Assembly: GCA_963734565.1 (NCBI GenBank)
Contig: CAVTHM010000003.1
Coordinates: forward strand, 139,610-203,609
Direction: 5' to 3'
From: an uncultured Thermoleophilia bacterium
Lineage (GTDB): Bacteria; Actinomycetota; Thermoleophilia; Gaiellales; Gaiellaceae
Length of the DNA stretch: 64,000 bases
Position numbers and translations under genes: made by a program. Each line of letters opens with the position of its first letter. The first letter of the stretch is position 1. The notes beneath the pieces are model-generated. The model saw nothing but the letters and a program-made list of their open reading frames with translations. It made no database searches and had not been told where the DNA came from. Below are positions 3,516 through 42,590 of this stretch, piece by piece.

Positions 3516-4682
3516 ATGGCGCGCGTCTTGCAGGGCGTTTCCGGCGGGATCGCGGCGTACAAGGCGTGCGAGCTGACACGGCTGCTCGTCAAGGCGGGCC
3601 ACGACGTGACGCCGCTGCTGACGCCGGGCGCCGAGCGGTTCGTCACCGCTGAGACCTTCCGCGCGCTCGCGCGCGTGGAGAACGATCCGGGACCGTACCC
3701 GCACCTCGAGCGGGCCGACCTCTACGTCATCGCGCCCGCGACCGCGCACACGCTCGCGAAGCTCGCGCACGGGCTGGCCGACAACGTCGTCACCGAGGCG
3801 GCACTCGCGCACCGCGGGCCGCTCGTCGTCGCGCCGGCGATGAACGTGCGCATGTGGGAGCACCCGGCGACGCAGGCGAACGTCGCGCTGCTGCGCGAGC
3901 GCGGCGTCGAGCTCGTCGGCCCGGCCAAGGGCGAGCTGGCAGAGGGCGAGTGGGGTGCGGGCCGCATGGCCGAGCCGGAGGAGATCTTCGCCCGCTGCGC
4001 CGCGCTCCTCGGATCAAGTAACAGTCTGTTACAAGGCAAGCGGGTCGTCGTCAGCGCGGGCGGGACGCGCGAGCCGGTCGACGCGGTGCGCTTCGTGGGC
4101 AACCGCTCGTCGGGTCGCATGGGCGTGGCGCTCGCCGAGGAGGCGCGCCGCCGCGGCGCGGACGTGACGCTGCTCGCCGCGAACCTTTCGGTGCCCGCGC
4201 CGGTAGGTATCGACGTGGTGGAGACGCCGACGGCCGCGGACGTGGAGCGCGAGGCGCTGGCACGCGCCGACGCGGACGTGGTGATCATGGCCGCGGCCGT
4301 CGCGGACTACCGCCCGGCTGAGGCGCTTGCCGCCAAGCGGCCGAAGGACGACGCAGGCTGGTCGCTCGCGCTCGAGCCGACCGTTGACGTTCTCCGTGCG
4401 CTCGGGGAGCGGCGACCGACCCGGGGACAGGTGCTCGTCGGCTTCGCGGCCGAGACCGGCGACGGCGGCCTCGAGCGCGCCGGTGAGAAGCTCACTCGCA
4501 AACGGCTCGACCTGATCGTCTACAACGATGTGAGCGCCAACGGCGTCGGCTTCGACAGCGAGGAGAACGAGGTCGTGATCGTCTCGCCCGAAGGGCAGCG
4601 GGCCGTGCCGCGCGGCCCGAAGGCGCAGATCGCGGCGGCCGTCATCGACGAGGTCGTGCGGGTGCTGAATGGACGCCAGTAG
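3516..4682 (+). CDS. coaBC: bifunctional phosphopantothenoylcysteine decarboxylase / phosphopantothenate-cysteine ligase
   Basis: Flavoprotein N-domain (GVSGGIAAYKA..L.R.L.KAGH.V) and CoaB domain (GKRVVVSAGGTREPVDAVRFVGNRSSGRMG). The interdomain linker contains the 24-bp cassette at 4014-4037. Confidence 0.9.
   Translation: MARVLQGVSGGIAAYKACELTRLLVKAGHDVTPLLTPGAERFVTAETFRALARVENDPGPYPHLERADLYVIAPATAHTLAKLAHGLADNVVTEAALAHRGPLVVAPAMNVRMWEHPATQANVALLRERGVELVGPAKGELAEGEWGAGRMAEPEEIFARCAALLGSSNSLLQGKRVVVSAGGTREPVDAVRFVGNRSSGRMGVALAEEARRRGADVTLLAANLSVPAPVGIDVVETPTAADVEREALARADADVVIMAAAVADYRPAEALAAKRPKDDAGWSLALEPTVDVLRALGERRPTRGQVLVGFAAETGDGGLERAGEKLTRKRLDLIVYNDVSANGVGFDSEENEVVIVSPEGQRAVPRGPKAQIAAAVIDEVVRVLNGRQ
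4014..4037. repeat. AT-rich palindromic cassette, copy 1 (tCAAGTAACAGTCTGTTACAAGGC), in frame inside coaBC
   Basis: It matches copies 2 and 3 (40820-40843 and 40890-40913) over 23 of 24 bp. The core is GTAACAG-T-CTGTTAC. It encodes SSNSLLQG using codons unusual for this genome (TCA AGT AAC AGT TTA CAA). Confidence 0.85.
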
Positions 4683-19341: not shown

Positions 19342-19461
19342 CGCCCAAGACTGTCCCGGTGTTGCGGCTGGCGTTGCCGTGGTCCGGGCGGAGCCCAGCT
19401 TGCCTGGGCGGGAGCCACGTCGCGCGAAGTCGCGTGTGACGTCAGCGGGGAAAGGGGTAGC

Positions 19462-39697: not shown

Positions 39698-39931
39698 GAG
39701 GGATTGGCGGAACGTCGCTCGTCGCAGGGGTGCGATGCTCGTCCCGAGGCTAGGACGCAGGGAGCGTTCGTATGCTTGTCATACGGGCGCGACTGAGGAC
39801 GACGCATCGGGGCGAGCAGCGCGGCCCGGCGGCTCAGACGTCGTTTCGCCAAGCCCTCCTGACCCGCGAACGCTCCGGCACGCTCGGCTCCGCGAGGAGC
39901 CGGGCGGGGCGCGGAGTACACTCTTCCCAGC

Positions 39932-40816
39932 GTGCTGGGCGAGCTGCTGACGGCGATCGTCACGCCGTTCCACGAGGACGGCTCGATCGACGTGGAGCAG
40001 TTCCGGGCGCTCGCCCGCTACCTGGTCGACCACGGCTCGGACGGCATCGTCGTCGCGGGCACCACCGGCGAGTCGCCGACGCTCTCGGACGACGAGAAGC
40101 TGACCCTTTTCGAGGCGGCGGTGGACGAGCTCGGCGGCCGCGCGACCGTCGTGGCGGGCACGGGCACGTACGACACGGCGCAGTCCGTCCACCTCACCGA
40201 GCGCGCGCACGAGCTCGGCGTCGACGGGCTCCTCGTCGTCACGCCGTACTACAACAAGCCGCCGCAGCGCGGCATCGTCGCGCACTTCCGCGCGATCTCC
40301 GAGGCGAGCGACAAGCCGATCGTCGTCTACAACATCCCAGGCCGCGTGATCGTGAACATCGAGCCGGAGACGATCACCGAGCTCGCCGAGATCCCGAGCG
40401 TGAGGGCCGTCAAGCAGGCGAACGCCGACCTCGCGCAGGCGCGGCACATCGTCGAGAACACAGGGCTCACCCTGTACGCGGGCGACGACAACCTCGTCTA
40501 TCCGTTCCTCGAGCTCGGCGGCACCGGCGGGATCTGCGTGCGGACGCACATCGCCGGCGACCGCTTCCGGGAGCTGGTGCGCCTGTTCCGCGCCGGCGAC
40601 GCGGCTGGAGCCAAGCTGATCCACGAGGAGCTGACACCGCTCTTCGAGCTCGACGCGATCGCGGTCAACCCGATCCCGATCAAGACCGCGCTGAACATGC
40701 TCGGCCACTCGGTCGGCGGCTTCCGGCTGCCGCTCGTCGACGCGACGGACGCCGAGCGCGAGGCGATCCGCGTCGCCCTGGATCGCGCCGGCGTGCGCGC
40801 CCCGGCCGCCGCCTGA
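39932..40816 (+). CDS. dapA: 4-hydroxy-tetrahydrodipicolinate synthase
   Basis: Translation reads ..TAIVTPF..DGSID......L...LV..GSDG.VV.GTTGESPTLS..EK.., ..TPYYNKP.Q.G...HF..I........YNIPGR.., and the active-site region ..VKQA.. Confidence 0.9.
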   Translation: MLGELLTAIVTPFHEDGSIDVEQFRALARYLVDHGSDGIVVAGTTGESPTLSDDEKLTLFEAAVDELGGRATVVAGTGTYDTAQSVHLTERAHELGVDGLLVVTPYYNKPPQRGIVAHFRAISEASDKPIVVYNIPGRVIVNIEPETITELAEIPSVRAVKQANADLAQARHIVENTGLTLYAGDDNLVYPFLELGGTGGICVRTHIAGDRFRELVRLFRAGDAAGAKLIHEELTPLFELDAIAVNPIPIKTALNMLGHSVGGFRLPLVDATDAEREAIRVALDRAGVRAPAAA

Positions 40817-40819
40817 GCG

Positions 40820-40843
40820 CCAAGTAACAGTCTGTTACAAGGC
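40820..40843. repeat. AT-rich palindromic cassette, copy 2 (CCAAGTAACAGTCTGTTACAAGGC)
   Basis: Identical to copy 3. It starts 4 nt after the dapA stop. Confidence 0.85.
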
Positions 40844-40889: not shown

Positions 40890-40913
40890 CCAAGTAACAG
40901 TCTGTTACAAGGC
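40890..40913. repeat. AT-rich palindromic cassette, copy 3 (CCAAGTAACAGTCTGTTACAAGGC)
   Basis: It lies exactly 70 bp from copy 2. Its TTA (40905-40907) is the complement of the TAA stop of the minus-strand HD-GYP gene. Confidence 0.85.
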
Positions 40914-42590
40914 TGCTTGGGCGGTGACCGCGTCGCCGGCACGTCGCGCGAGGCCGAGCACTTCCGGCTCGTCCGTGTAGAGCCGCTCCATCGCCTCGAT
41001 GACCACGGGGCAGAACTGCGTCCCGGCGTGGGTGCGCAGCTCCTCGACCGCCTCCGGGATGCTGCGGCCGAGCCGGTAGGGCCGGTCGCTCGTCAGCGCG
41101 TCGAACGCGTCGGCAACGAGCACGATCCGCGCCGGTAGCGGGATCTCGTCGCCCGCCTTGCCGTCCGGATAGCCGGCGCCGTCGATCCGCTCGTGGCTCG
41201 AGCGGGCGACCTGCAGAACGATGGGGTGGAGGCCAACCTCCGAGAGGATGTACTCGGAGATCACCGGATGTTCCTTCATGATCGCCCACTCGTCGTCGTC
41301 GAGCGGGCCAGGCTTCTGGAGGATGCGCTCCGGGATCCCGATCTTGCCGATGTCGTGCAGCAGCGCGCCGACCTCGACCGCCTCCAGGTCCGGGCCGTGG
41401 AAGCCGAGCCGGCGCGCGAGAGCGACGGCCACACCGGCAACGCGCTCCGTGTGGCCGCCTGTGTAGAAGTCCTTCGCCTCCATGCTCTTCGACAGCGCCG
41501 CGATGGTCGCCAGGTGCGTGCGGCGCACGTGCTCGACGAGGTCGGCGCTCTCGAGCGCCGTCGCGAGCTGCGGCACGATCGCCTCGCGGAGCCGGAGCCA
41601 GCGTGCCTCGTCCAGCGCGCCGCTGAGCTCGATGTCGAGCTTGCCGACCACCTTGCCGCCGGCGATCAGCTCGCGGCCCGTCGGCGCGTCGGCGTCGTGC
41701 ACGGACACGCGTGCTCCGGTGACACGCGCGAGCGCCTCGCGCGCGTACGAGACGAGCTCGGGGCGGTCGTGGGCCCGCGTCGCCAGCCCGCTCGCGAACT
41801 GCAGCACGGCCTGGAGATCGCCGTTCCGCGTGCCCAGCTCCTCGTTCGCGACGCGCAGCTCCTCGTTGGCGCGGCGCACCTCGGCGACGCCCGCCTTGCT
41901 GCGCTCGACGTACTGGCGCATCGAGAACATCATCATCGCCGGCGGCAGCGCGAAGGCCGCCAGGCCGGCGAGACCCATCGCGTCGTAGGCCGCAGTGAGC
42001 GCGTAGGCGAGCGGCGCGGCCACGAGGTAGTACGGGGTGAGCCAGCGGAAGCGCTCCCGCCACACCTCGAGCGGGGCAGCACGCTCGGCGAGCGCGAACG
42101 CAACGACGAGCAGCCCGACGTTGACGACCATGTAGGCCGCACCTGCGGCGACGGCCGCCGCGACGGCAGGGACCGGCGTCGCCTCGAGGCCCGCGTACAC
42201 GGCCGCGCCCGCGCCGGCCGAGAGCATGAACTGGGCGGTGTCGAAGATCCCGCGATTGATGCGGCCGCGCCGCGCGACGAAGTTGGCGACGCCCATCAGC
42301 GCCGCCGCCGCCATCGCCGGCCCCACGCCGAAGGTGAACCCGATCGCCAGCAGCCCGACGCTCGCGAAGCTCGTTGCGCCGCGGCCGTAGACCTCGATCG
42401 GGAGGAGCTGCAGCAGAAGCGTCAGCCCGACGAAGGCGATCAGCGCGGGCGCCTGTCCGGCGACCACCCCGCTCACCGACCCGATGACGAACAACTGCGC
42501 CGCGGCGGCGGCGCAGACGACGATCGAGACGTAGACGTTGGGGTCGCGCCGGGCCTCGCTGCCCGACACGCTCACTGCATGGGAGTTCAC
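40905..42590 (-). CDS. membrane-anchored HD-GYP domain protein (probable c-di-GMP phosphodiesterase)
   Basis: Multi-TM N-terminal half, a coiled segment, then ..YTGGHTERVAGVAVALA..LHDIGKIGIPE.IL.KPG.L...E...M..HP......HHERIDGAGYPDG.. Confidence 0.85.
   Translation of the reverse strand: MNSHAVSVSGSEARRDPNVYVSIVVCAAAAAQLFVIGSVSGVVAGQAPALIAFVGLTLLLQLLPIEVYGRGATSFASVGLLAIGFTFGVGPAMAAAALMGVANFVARRGRINRGIFDTAQFMLSAGAGAAVYAGLEATPVPAVAAAVAAGAAYMVVNVGLLVVAFALAERAAPLEVWRERFRWLTPYYLVAAPLAYALTAAYDAMGLAGLAAFALPPAMMMFSMRQYVERSKAGVAEVRRANEELRVANEELGTRNGDLQAVLQFASGLATRAHDRPELVSYAREALARVTGARVSVHDADAPTGRELIAGGKVVGKLDIELSGALDEARWLRLREAIVPQLATALESADLVEHVRRTHLATIAALSKSMEAKDFYTGGHTERVAGVAVALARRLGFHGPDLEAVEVGALLHDIGKIGIPERILQKPGPLDDDEWAIMKEHPVISEYILSEVGLHPIVLQVARSSHERIDGAGYPDGKAGDEIPLPARIVLVADAFDALTSDRPYRLGRSIPEAVEELRTHAGTQFCPVVIEAMERLYTDEPEVLGLARRAGDAVTAQAAL

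What the first reader, a model, noticed from the sequence alone, without database searches (positions are those of the whole stretch)
4014..4037. 24-bp AT-rich palindromic cassette inserted in frame in the CoaC-CoaB linker of coaBC
The segment TCAAGTAACAGTCTGTTACAAGGC is 23/24 identical to two other copies 36.8 kb away (40820-40843 and 40890-40913).

It is exactly eight codons (SSNSLLQG). It lies in the variable linker just before the conserved GKRVVVSAGGTREP block of CoaB.

Its codons (TCA, AGT, AAC, AGT, TTA, CAA) clash with the near-universal G/C third positions of this genome. The core GTAACAG-T-CTGTTAC is a perfect 7-1-7 palindrome bracketed by CAAG...CAAG.

An exact 23-mer recurring three times in 64 kb of otherwise unrelated sequence cannot be chance. 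It looks like a tiny mobile or copy-pasted element, or a dimeric-protein binding site tolerated inside an essential gene.
Basis: seen in the sequence. Interest (0 to 1): 0.6.

Follow-up and report, generated by a model that had tools for sequence, protein, structure and literature searches.

The report
Tiny palindromic repeat inside coaBC
The 24-bp AT-rich palindrome in coaBC is one of about 47 near-identical copies of a REP-like repeat in a soil Gaiellaceae genome; most copies sit just after genes and a few are read in frame in enzyme linkers, which is a new example of a known kind of bacterial repeat.

Summary
GTAACAGTCTGTTAC occurs exactly three times in the window. The coaBC copy is eight in-frame codons (SSNSLLQG) between the CoaC and CoaB domains.

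It belongs to a genome-wide family, GCC-WW-GTAACAG-W-CTGTTAC-WW-GGC, with 47 exact cores in this 4-Mb Gaiellaceae MAG. Most copies lie at gene 3' ends, and seven ORFs take their stop codon from the element. Six copies are in frame in five genes (coaBC, polA, a biotin carboxylase, a dnaE2-like gene, a SelA-like gene), always read SN(S/R)LL(Q/L)G.

Sister families of the same design share the genome or replace F1 in congeners. The coaBC linker slot holds whichever family dominates each genome. Between G000 and its nearest relative the arms are about 98% conserved, while the centre and flanks drift.

The genome's only Y1 transposase gene is flanked by a different repeat. I found no target-site duplication and no parent IS.

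Best reading: an untagged REP-like palindromic repeat, with the coaBC copy a tolerated passenger. Intragenic REPs in polA, dnaE2 and photolyase genes are already published (PMC3733652). This is therefore a new member of a known kind. The slot-swapping and the lack of net length change are the unexplained parts.

The parts
4014..4037 (.). F1 palindromic element, intragenic copy (core 4018-4032, centre 4025). Read on the + strand as codons TCA AGT AAC AGT CTG TTA CAA GGC = SSNSLLQG of CoaBC.
3516..4682 (+). coaBC (388 aa). Flavoprotein/CoaC domain aa 3-163, DFP/CoaB domain aa 172-356. The element encodes aa 167-174, at the domain junction.
40820..40843 (.). F1 element, first unit of a doublet. 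It starts 4 nt after the TGA stop of the dapA-like ORF.
   Evidence: the orthologous copy is present in G008
40890..40913 (.). F1 element, second unit of the doublet (centres 70 bp apart). Its TTA at 40905-40907 is the TAA stop of the minus-strand HD-GYP-type ORF, and it also supplies that ORF's last two codons.
   Evidence: the G008 orthologue has the centre variant GTAACAAACTGTTAC
39932..40816 (+). dapA-like ORF (294 aa) whose 3' end abuts the doublet. The name is my reading of the translation.
40905..42590 (-). HD-GYP-type ORF (561 aa), convergent with the dapA-like ORF, terminating inside the second element. The name is my reading of the translation.

Best explanation
The 24-mer is one member of a family of REP-like (repetitive extragenic palindrome-like) elements in a Gaiellaceae (Thermoleophilia) genome.

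The unit is a 25-bp AT-rich dyad, GCC-WW-GTAACAG-W-CTGTTAC-WW-GGC. As single-stranded DNA or RNA it can fold into a hairpin of up to 11 bp with a 3-nt loop.

Copies are kept near-identical by a sequence-specific process, either copying from active members or recognition by an unidentified trans-acting protein. This step is inferred. They accumulate where they do least harm: directly after stop codons and, rarely, in frame in inter-domain linkers.

The coaBC copy is such a passenger. Its reading frame has no stop and gives a small polar/aliphatic peptide, SSNSLLQG. The last residues, LQG, mimic the native L-x-G that precedes the CoaB GKR motif, so the enzyme tolerates it.

Shown here: family membership, copy number, location bias, arm-specific conservation, turnover of families between species, and in-frame copies in five genes.

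Inferred: how copies spread, and whether they act as RNA/DNA hairpins (mRNA 3'-end stabilisers or terminators) or are simply selfish.
For: - **Copy number and anatomy.** 47 exact cores in G000, and a 25-bp conserved unit.
- **Hairpin potential.** -10.3 kcal/mol (z = -6.5) for the symmetric form, -5.4 for the asymmetric form, -3.5 for the coaBC copy.
- **Location.** 37 of 40 intergenic copies lie in tandem or convergent spacers. 20 of 40 are within 40 bp of a gene 3' end. Seven ORFs use the element's own TAA as stop.
- **In-frame copies.** Six copies in polA, a biotin carboxylase, a PHP/dnaE2-like gene (two copies), coaBC and a SelA-like gene. All lie at domain boundaries and all are read SN(S/R)LL(Q/L)G.
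- **Sister families of the same design in the same genome.** F2 has 54 copies and F3 about 12.
- **Patchy, complementary distribution in the genus.** F1: G000 47, G008 37, G010 15, G004 14, G005 5, G002 2, and 0 in six others. AGTGGC-N5-GCCACT: G001 49, G003 48, G007 14, G011 10, G000 5. GCAACAG-W-CTGTTGC: only G005 (11) and G002 (9).
- **Orthologous conservation.** Orthologous G000/G008 copies are 98.4% identical in the core against about 82-90% in flanks. Differences are confined to the 3-nt centre.
- **Indels.** Doublets present in one species and absent in the other, located at stop codons.
- **Published match.** The same behaviour is published for REPs: 3' ends, supplying stop codons, and intragenic copies in polA, DnaE2 and photolyase (PMC3733652).
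Against: - No cognate transposase was found. The only Y1_Tnp gene in G000 is flanked by a different repeat (GGTGCCAGGC), and no Y1 gene in the genus has such palindromes within 1.5 kb.
- There is no GTAG or CGTC tag.
- No clear target-site duplication and no parent IS with matching ends were found.
- Intragenic copies add little or no length (0 aa in coaBC, about +1-3 in the carboxylase, about +2-4 in polA), which does not fit simple insertion.
- Different families occupy the same slots in different species, which random transposition does not predict.
- The assembly is only 71% complete, so a partner gene could be missing.
Confidence: 0.7

Rival explanations
1. The palindromes are double-stranded binding sites for a homodimeric DNA-binding protein, with paralogues for the sister families. 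Candidates would be a nucleoid-associated or chromosome-organising factor, or a global regulator. On this reading the half-sites are WWGTAAC, separated by a 5-bp spacer. The coaBC copy would be a site that happens to lie in a gene, as parS or Noc sites often do (the parS/Noc comparison is from my own knowledge).
For: - Perfect dyad symmetry, with arms conserved and the centre free to vary between G000 and G008.
- Families differ by paired, symmetry-preserving changes, for example F1 against F1'.
- The CCAAG half-site is present on at least one side in every copy; the TT...AA state is never seen.
- Whole families are lost in some lineages, as expected after loss of a trans factor.
- No transposase partner was found.
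Against: - Copies sit mainly at gene 3' ends and in convergent spacers, and are depleted from divergent (promoter) spacers: 3 of 40 against about 8 expected.
- Sites are near-identical rather than degenerate.
- Tandem doublets and triplets, tandem duplications and 100-150-bp indels are typical of repeats.
- Three or four families of one design, with swaps at fixed sites, would need several co-evolving proteins and site sets.
Confidence: 0.17
2. The motif arises in situ and spreads by a molecular drive rather than by insertion. The drive could be biased uptake and recombination, as for DNA uptake sequences, or short-patch templated conversion that overwrites resident sequence.
For: - Little or no net length change at intragenic copies, and the element's translation mimics native residues: L-x-G before GKR in CoaB, and G before HA in the carboxylase.
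- Family swaps at fixed slots.
- A hybrid F1/F1' copy in G002 coaBC.
- Intragenic copies are enriched in DNA-maintenance genes, as reported for uptake sequences (that report is from my own knowledge).
Against: - Only about 50 copies per 4 Mb, against roughly one per kb for known uptake sequences (from my own knowledge).
- A 25-bp palindrome is too long to arise stepwise.
- Clean indels of whole doublets and a clean +8-codon copy in G002 coaBC show insertion or deletion events.
- No competence evidence was examined.
Confidence: 0.08
3. Chance similarity or a sequencing or assembly artefact (adapter or chimeric junction).
For: The genomes are MAGs. Some centre differences between G000 and G008 (C>T at +1, G>A at -1) could be long-read consensus errors at a modified motif.
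Against: - None of 100 shuffles reach the observed count.
- Reversed-pattern controls give 0.
- Copies recur at orthologous sites in independently assembled genomes and stay in frame in conserved genes.
Confidence: 0.01

Closest known systems
REPs, repetitive extragenic palindromes, including the GTAG- and CGTC-tagged super-families (Di Nocera et al. 2013, PMC3733652; definition in PMC12306157)
   Same: - Short (20-40 bp) palindromic units with a common consensus, in tens to hundreds of copies.
- Mostly less than 20-40 bp downstream of ORFs, in tandem or convergent spacers.
- Singlets, dimers and clusters; sometimes supplying the stop codon.
- Several families per genome, unevenly distributed among related species.
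- Occasional intragenic copies in linkers, notably in polA, DnaE2 and photolyase genes.
- CGTC REPs also lack a dedicated transposase.
   Different: - No GTAG or CGTC terminal tag.
- Arms are a perfect 7-1-7 dyad with a strictly A/T centre and A/T-flipping WW steps.
- AT-rich in a 71% GC actinomycete.
- Low copy number.
- No RAYT flanked by these units.
- Different families occupy the same orthologous slots, including slots inside coding sequences.
REPIN-RAYT systems (Bertels and Rainey 2011, PMC3116915; PMC8049555)
   Same: - Doublets 48-77 bp apart that can fold into long hairpins.
- Vertical persistence at orthologous sites.
- Whole populations absent from some lineages, as after loss of the mobilising gene.
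- 'Orthoswitch' of REP classes between related strains (PMC3686654).
   Different: - The two units of a doublet are each self-palindromic and are not consistently inverted.
- Non-core sequence of doublets is unique to each locus.
- The genome's single RAYT-like gene is associated with another repeat (GGTGCCAGGC), not with F1-F3.
Rickettsia palindromic elements (RPEs) (reviewed in PMC10969869)
   Same: Palindromic repeats found in frame inside unrelated housekeeping genes, at positions compatible with protein fold and function.
   Different: RPEs are about 100-150 bp and add 30-50 residues. This unit is 24-25 bp (8 residues), adds little or no net length, and is mostly extragenic.
MITEs
   Same: Small, non-coding, multi-copy, with inverted-repeat character and presence/absence differences between relatives.
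   Different: Far below MITE size (70-300 bp). No consistent target-site duplication, no internal sequence, and no parent IS whose ends match.

Membership tests
REP (generic definition, PMC12306157) | Short (about 14-40 nt) palindromic stem-loop unit | tested here: met
   25-bp conserved unit. Folds to an 11-bp stem with a 3-nt loop at -10.3 kcal/mol, z = -6.5.
REP (generic definition, PMC12306157) | Many copies per genome sharing one consensus | tested here: met
   47 exact 15-bp cores, about 52 with up to 2 mismatches; reversed-pattern control 0.
REP (generic definition, PMC12306157) | Mostly extragenic, near gene 3' ends, in tandem or convergent spacers | tested here: met
   11 convergent, 26 tandem, 3 divergent. 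20 of 40 within 40 bp of a 3' end. Based on my own crude gene calls.
GTAG- / CGTC-tagged REP super-families (PMC3733652) | Conserved GTAG or CGTC tetramer at one end of the palindrome | tested here: not met
   The position matrix gives GCC-WW-GTAAC... on both sides, with no GTAG or CGTC.
REPIN-RAYT | A cognate single-copy RAYT (Y1/HUH transposase) gene flanked by the same REPs | tested here: not met
   The one Y1_Tnp ORF (C7:555536-556159) is flanked by GGTGCCAGGC repeats. No F1-F3-type palindrome lies within 1.5 kb of the 10 Y1 loci fetched across the genus (L055-L064). G002 has F1/F1' but no Y1 hit. Caveat: the assembly is 71% complete.
REPIN-RAYT | The replicative unit is two REPs in inverted orientation forming one long hairpin | tested here: inconclusive
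   12 doublets in G000. Three G008-only doublets fold into long hairpins. But the units are self-symmetric, their asymmetric WW states are often direct rather than inverted, and the spacers are unrelated.
MITE | Terminal inverted repeats plus a target-site duplication, derived from an IS | tested here: not met
   No consistent duplication at three empty/filled site pairs. No isolated half-sites marking IS ends. The unit is only 25 bp.
Rickettsia palindromic elements | Palindromic repeat inserted in frame in ORFs that remain functional | tested here: met
   Six in-frame F1 copies in five conserved genes, with all invariant CoaBC residues intact. Function of the proteins was not tested.
Rickettsia palindromic elements | Unit of about 100-150 bp encoding a conserved peptide of 30-50 aa | tested here: not met
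   The unit is 24-25 bp, 8 aa.
Transcription-factor operator / regulon | Sites lie in promoter regions upstream of regulated genes and are degenerate | tested here: not met
   Depleted from divergent spacers and mostly downstream of stops. Arms are invariant in 47 copies.
DNA uptake sequences | Very high density (about one per kb), with a competence-linked uptake bias | tested here: not met
   About one copy per 85 kb. Uptake bias is not testable with these tools.

The most novel reading that the evidence does not exclude
The palindromes do not spread by ordinary insertion. They occupy long-lived 'slots', including codons of essential genes. An unidentified sequence-specific system would overwrite the resident hairpin with the genome's currently dominant family, by templated hairpin replacement or concerted conversion. 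That would explain three things: the same coaBC, SelA-like and intergenic slots carrying F1, F1', F3-type or hybrid palindromes in different species; the near-zero net length change; and the arms-only conservation. A weaker add-on is that the rare-codon hairpins at domain boundaries have been co-opted as translational or mRNA-processing pauses.
Probability: 0.15. Interest if true: 0.7.

Novelty: new member of a known kind. Interest (0 to 1): 0.4.

Why it matters
It extends REP-like palindromic repeats to an uncultured, high-GC actinomycete lineage (Gaiellaceae). In the papers I searched I found nothing on repeats in this group.

It also gives an unusually small and clean example of repeat DNA read as protein in essential enzymes: coaBC, polA and a biotin carboxylase.

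Related families occupy the same orthologous slots, with hybrid intermediates and no RAYT. This makes the genus a good natural data set for an open question raised for CGTC-type and untagged REPs: how palindromic repeats without a dedicated transposase are propagated and homogenised.

For annotation, it explains AT-rich codon islands and element-derived stop codons in these genomes.

Tried and rejected
- **RAYT/IS200 partnership.** Searched PF01797 across the genus and inspected the flanks. No association with F1-F3. The Y1 gene has its own GGTGCCAGGC repeat.
- **Longer covarying hairpin beyond the 25-mer.** Self-complementarity at positions ±13-37 is no higher than the cross-copy control.
- **Doublets as copies of one MITE.** Non-core parts share no sequence.
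- **Target-site duplications.** Three empty/filled pairs gave only weak, inconsistent candidates.
- **Parent IS with F1 half-sites as ends.** Only 13 scattered half-sites, none IS-like.
- **Phage origin.** No exact match in viral contigs.
- **Known RNA family.** No Rfam hit in the window.
- **Population evidence from public runs.** Only relatives are present, and depth collapses over the linker, so the result is uninformative.
- **Orientation of the asymmetric state relative to the upstream gene.** 10 against 6, not significant.
- **GC-decay reading.** I considered that the GC-rich linkers of G004 and G012 are decayed copies of the element. I rejected this because the residual identity is explained by conserved P/L/G codons.
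- **The 17-bp palindrome at 39769-39785.** Single-copy and unrelated.

Full report
**Observation.** The sequence is as described. TCAAGTAACAGTCTGTTACAAGGC lies at 4014-4037 and CCAAGTAACAGTCTGTTACAAGGC at 40820-40843 and 40890-40913. The 15-bp core GTAACAG-T-CTGTTAC occurs three times; the mean in 100 dinucleotide-preserving shuffles is 0.01, and none reach three.

The first copy is in frame in a 388-aa ORF (3516..4682, +) as SSNSLLQG, immediately before GKRVVVSAGGTREP. Pfam places it between the Flavoprotein/CoaC domain (aa 3-163) and the DFP/CoaB domain (aa 172-356). It aligns with the linker of the solved M. smegmatis CoaBC (6TGV), and stand-alone CoaB structures begin at about this point. 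GC3 of the gene is 0.924 outside the element and 3/8 inside it (p = 1.8e-4).

The other two copies form a doublet between a dapA-like ORF and a convergent HD-GYP-type ORF. The first starts 4 nt after the dapA-like TGA. The second supplies the last two codons and the TAA stop of the minus-strand ORF.

**Genome-wide family.** The window is part of a 4.0-Mb, 7-contig, 71% GC genome estimated at 71% complete. Relatives' record titles place it in Gaiellaceae (Thermoleophilia), a group of soil MAGs.

The genome holds 47 exact cores GTAACAG-[A/T]-CTGTTAC, and about 52 with up to 2 mismatches; the reversed-pattern control gives 0. A position matrix shows a 25-bp conserved unit, GCC-WW-GTAACAG-W-CTGTTAC-WW-GGC.

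- The centre is always A or T.
- The WW steps are AA or TT. The states AA..TT, AA..AA and TT..TT occur, but TT..AA never does.
- Flanks beyond ±12 are not self-complementary above a cross-copy control, so the unit really is about 25 bp.
- As single-stranded DNA the symmetric form folds at -10.3 kcal/mol (z = -6.5), the asymmetric form at -5.4, and the coaBC copy at -3.5.
- Twelve pairs lie 48-77 bp apart.

**Where copies sit.** These figures use my own GC3-based gene calls, which are crude. Among the 40 intergenic copies, 26 are in tandem spacers, 11 in convergent spacers and 3 in divergent spacers; about 8 would be expected in divergent spacers. Twenty are within 40 bp of a gene 3' end, and seven ORFs end on the element's own TAA.

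Six copies are truly intragenic and in frame.

| Gene | Peptide and position | Basis |
|---|---|---|
| coaBC | SSNSLLQG, between CoaC and CoaB domains | Pfam, |
| polA | PSNSLLQG, aa 362-369, between the 5'-3' exonuclease and polymerase domains | Pfam, |
| Biotin carboxylase/BCCP protein | PSNSLLQG, aa 303-310, between CPSase_L_D2 and Biotin_carb_C | Pfam, |
| PHP-domain dnaE2-like ORF (two copies) | PSNRLLQG and PSNSLLQG | Pfam PHP domain, |
| SelA-like gene | ASNSLLLG, before the FSGDKLLGGPQ motif | identity by my reading of that motif |

All six use the SN(S/R)LL(Q/L)G frame and none uses the other open frame (QVTVCY).

**Sister families.** K-mer and palindrome censuses found further families of the same design.

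- F2, C-TTW-ACAGGGAC-W-GTCCCTGT-WAA-G: 54 copies, with doublets and triplets 44-51 bp apart.
- F3, WWW-GTGGCTC-W-GAGCCAC-WWW: about 12 copies.

F2 also occurs in frame in ORFs that I read as a phosphomannomutase, an alpha/beta-hydrolase and a two-domain sugar enzyme. Three tandem units lie in a photolyase-like ORF. Those gene identities are by inspection only.

**Distribution among relatives.** F1 is confined to the genus and is patchy within it.

| Family | Copy numbers |
|---|---|
| F1 | G000 47, G008 37, G010 15, G004 14, G005 5, G002 2; none in six congeners; at most chance-level hits outside the genus |
| AGTGGC-N5-GCCACT (mostly AGTGGCTG-W-CAGCCACT; same 7-1-7 layout, frame WWGT..C.G-W-C.G..ACWW) | G001 49, G003 48, G007 14, G011 10, G004 6, G000 5, G010 3, G006 3, G008 2, G002 1 |
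| F1', GCAACAG-W-CTGTTGC (both arms changed together) | only G005 (11) and G002 (9) |

The second family is roughly complementary to F1. Families therefore turn over between species by symmetry-preserving changes.

**The coaBC slot.** Alignment of orthologues shows that the slot between ...ARCAALL and GKRV holds different sequences in different genomes.

| Genome | Content of the slot |
|---|---|
| G000 | F1 |
| G002 | F1/F1' hybrid, with eight extra codons relative to G009 |
| G008 (95% identical protein) | F1 with a 24-bp palindromic expansion at its centre |
| G003, G007 | AGTGGC-GGACA-GCCACT-type palindrome |
| G010, G001 | F3 (one mismatch in G001) |
| G009, G004, G005 and other genera | no palindrome |

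The slot thus tends to carry the family that dominates each genome. The same happens at two other sites.

- At one intergenic site G008 has F1 where G000 has F3.
- In the SelA-like gene, G000 and G008 have F1, G005 has F1' read in another frame, five congeners have no palindrome and a shorter loop, and outgroups have 9-10 aa.

In the biotin carboxylase, the identical DNA AGT AAC AGT CTG TTA CAA GG is present in G000, G008, G010 and G005. It is absent, with GC-rich codons of similar length, in G006, G007, G009, G004 and G001.

**Insertion or overwriting?** In G000 the coaBC linker is no longer than in G004 or G012. The carboxylase segment is 14 aa against 11-13 in congeners and 15 in outgroups. 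polA gains about 2-4 aa. The element's LQG or LLG coincides with native L-x-G residues. Only G002 coaBC looks like a clean +8-codon insertion. This does not fit simple insertion and remains unexplained.

Clear indels do exist, however. Three doublets of about 104-154 bp are present in G008 and absent in G000, all abutting stop codons, and each folds into a long hairpin. Their non-core sequence is locus-specific, and I found no consistent target-site duplication. Singlet/doublet differences and tandem duplications are also seen.

**Conservation pattern.** Most G008 copies are at orthologous positions in G000. In 13 ungapped pairs the 24 core positions are 98.4% identical, against 82% for flanks counted without gaps; BLAST flank identities are 87-95% (p = 5e-18).

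G000 copies that seemed to lack a G008 partner are in fact present there with changes in the centre. Across 20 pairs, differences cluster at positions -1, 0 and +1, mostly C>T at +1 and G>A at -1. Flanks beyond ±12 diverge at a similar rate, and the arms are almost invariant. The centre also flips A/T between orthologues.

Both a hairpin (stem constrained, loop free) and a dimer-binding site (half-sites constrained, spacer free) predict this pattern. The centre changes could partly be long-read consensus errors at a modified motif; I could not test that.

**Partner search.** G000 has one Y1_Tnp (IS200/RAYT-like) ORF, at C7:555536-556159. It is preceded by two GGTGCCAGGC repeats, members of a separate family with about 77 core matches, typically in pairs about 110 bp apart. 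No F1-F3-type palindrome lies within 1.5 kb of any Y1 locus fetched from the genus. Y1 presence does not track F1. No IS ends match F1 half-sites. There are no viral-contig matches and no Rfam family. Public runs contain only relatives and were uninformative.

**Comparison with what is known.** The generic REP definition (short, palindromic, consensus-sharing, multi-copy, mostly extragenic near gene ends; PMC12306157) is met.

Di Nocera et al. (PMC3733652) already describe the following:
- REPs within 20 bp of ORF 3' ends
- REPs that supply stop codons
- several families per genome
- uneven distribution among species
- intragenic copies in flexible linkers, with a striking excess in DNA polymerase I, DnaE2 and a photolyase
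- CGTC REPs without a transposase
- untagged REP-like families noted as under-explored

Nunvar et al. (PMC3686654) describe 'orthoswitches' of REP classes. RPEs are the classic in-frame palindromic elements but are about 150 bp (PMC10969869).

The present elements fail the GTAG/CGTC tag test and the RAYT-flanking test, so I do not file them under those families. They behave like REPs. I found nothing on repeats in Gaiellales.

**Verdict.** This is a real feature, correctly spotted. It is best explained as an untagged REP-like palindromic repeat whose coaBC copy is a tolerated in-frame passenger (confidence 0.7). A dimeric-protein binding site is the main rival (0.17).

It is a new member of a known kind. 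The parts worth following up are the conserved slots with family swapping, the lack of net length change at intragenic copies, and the missing mobilising factor.

Noticed in passing
G000 C7:555409-556159 and genome-wide (not in the window): A separate GC-rich repeat with core GGTGCCAGGC(AC) has about 77 core matches, typically in direct pairs about 110 bp apart. One pair lies directly upstream of the genome's only Y1_Tnp (RAYT-like, 207-aa open frame) gene. This is probably the genome's classical REPIN-RAYT system, and it is distinct from the AT-rich palindromes.
   Followed up: partly
window 19418-19434; G000 genome-wide; tandem array at C7:863214-863839: A repeat of roughly 100 bp containing CGTCGCGCGAAGTCGCG, preceded by a GGCGGAGCCCGGCTTGCCCGGGCGGGAGCC hairpin, has 55 copies. 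One copy is in the window, after infB. Four are in tandem with a period of about 208 bp. No Rfam match in the window.
   Followed up: partly
G000 C4:5428-5540 (not in the window): Three tandem 48-bp units of the F2 palindrome family are read in frame (LTGTVPVRDDAPGRGAF repeated) in a loop of a photolyase-like ORF. F2 is also in frame in ORFs I read as a phosphomannomutase, an alpha/beta-hydrolase and a two-domain sugar enzyme.
   Followed up: partly
G000 C4:13999-14994 (not in the window): The PHP-domain dnaE2-like ORF that carries two F1 copies ends after 331 aa with an out-of-frame-looking tail. It may be a pseudogene or an assembly frameshift.
   Followed up: no
G008 coaBC linker (L032, near locus position 2000): In the closest relative the coaBC element has a 24-bp expansion at its centre (GTAACCGTCT-TCTTCCTGAAGTCCTTGG-AGACGGGTTAC). 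The added sequence includes an inverted copy of the neighbouring arm, which looks like hairpin-templated growth of the palindrome.
   Followed up: no
window 39769-39785: The 17-bp palindrome CGTATGCTTGTCATACG upstream of the dapA-like ORF is single-copy in the genome (CGTATG-N5-CATACG occurs 5 times). It is unrelated to the F1 family.
   Followed up: yes
G007 (three selA-like loci: C7, C15, C33): G007 has three nearly identical SelA-like genes on different contigs and 7% estimated contamination. This suggests strain redundancy in that MAG.
   Followed up: no
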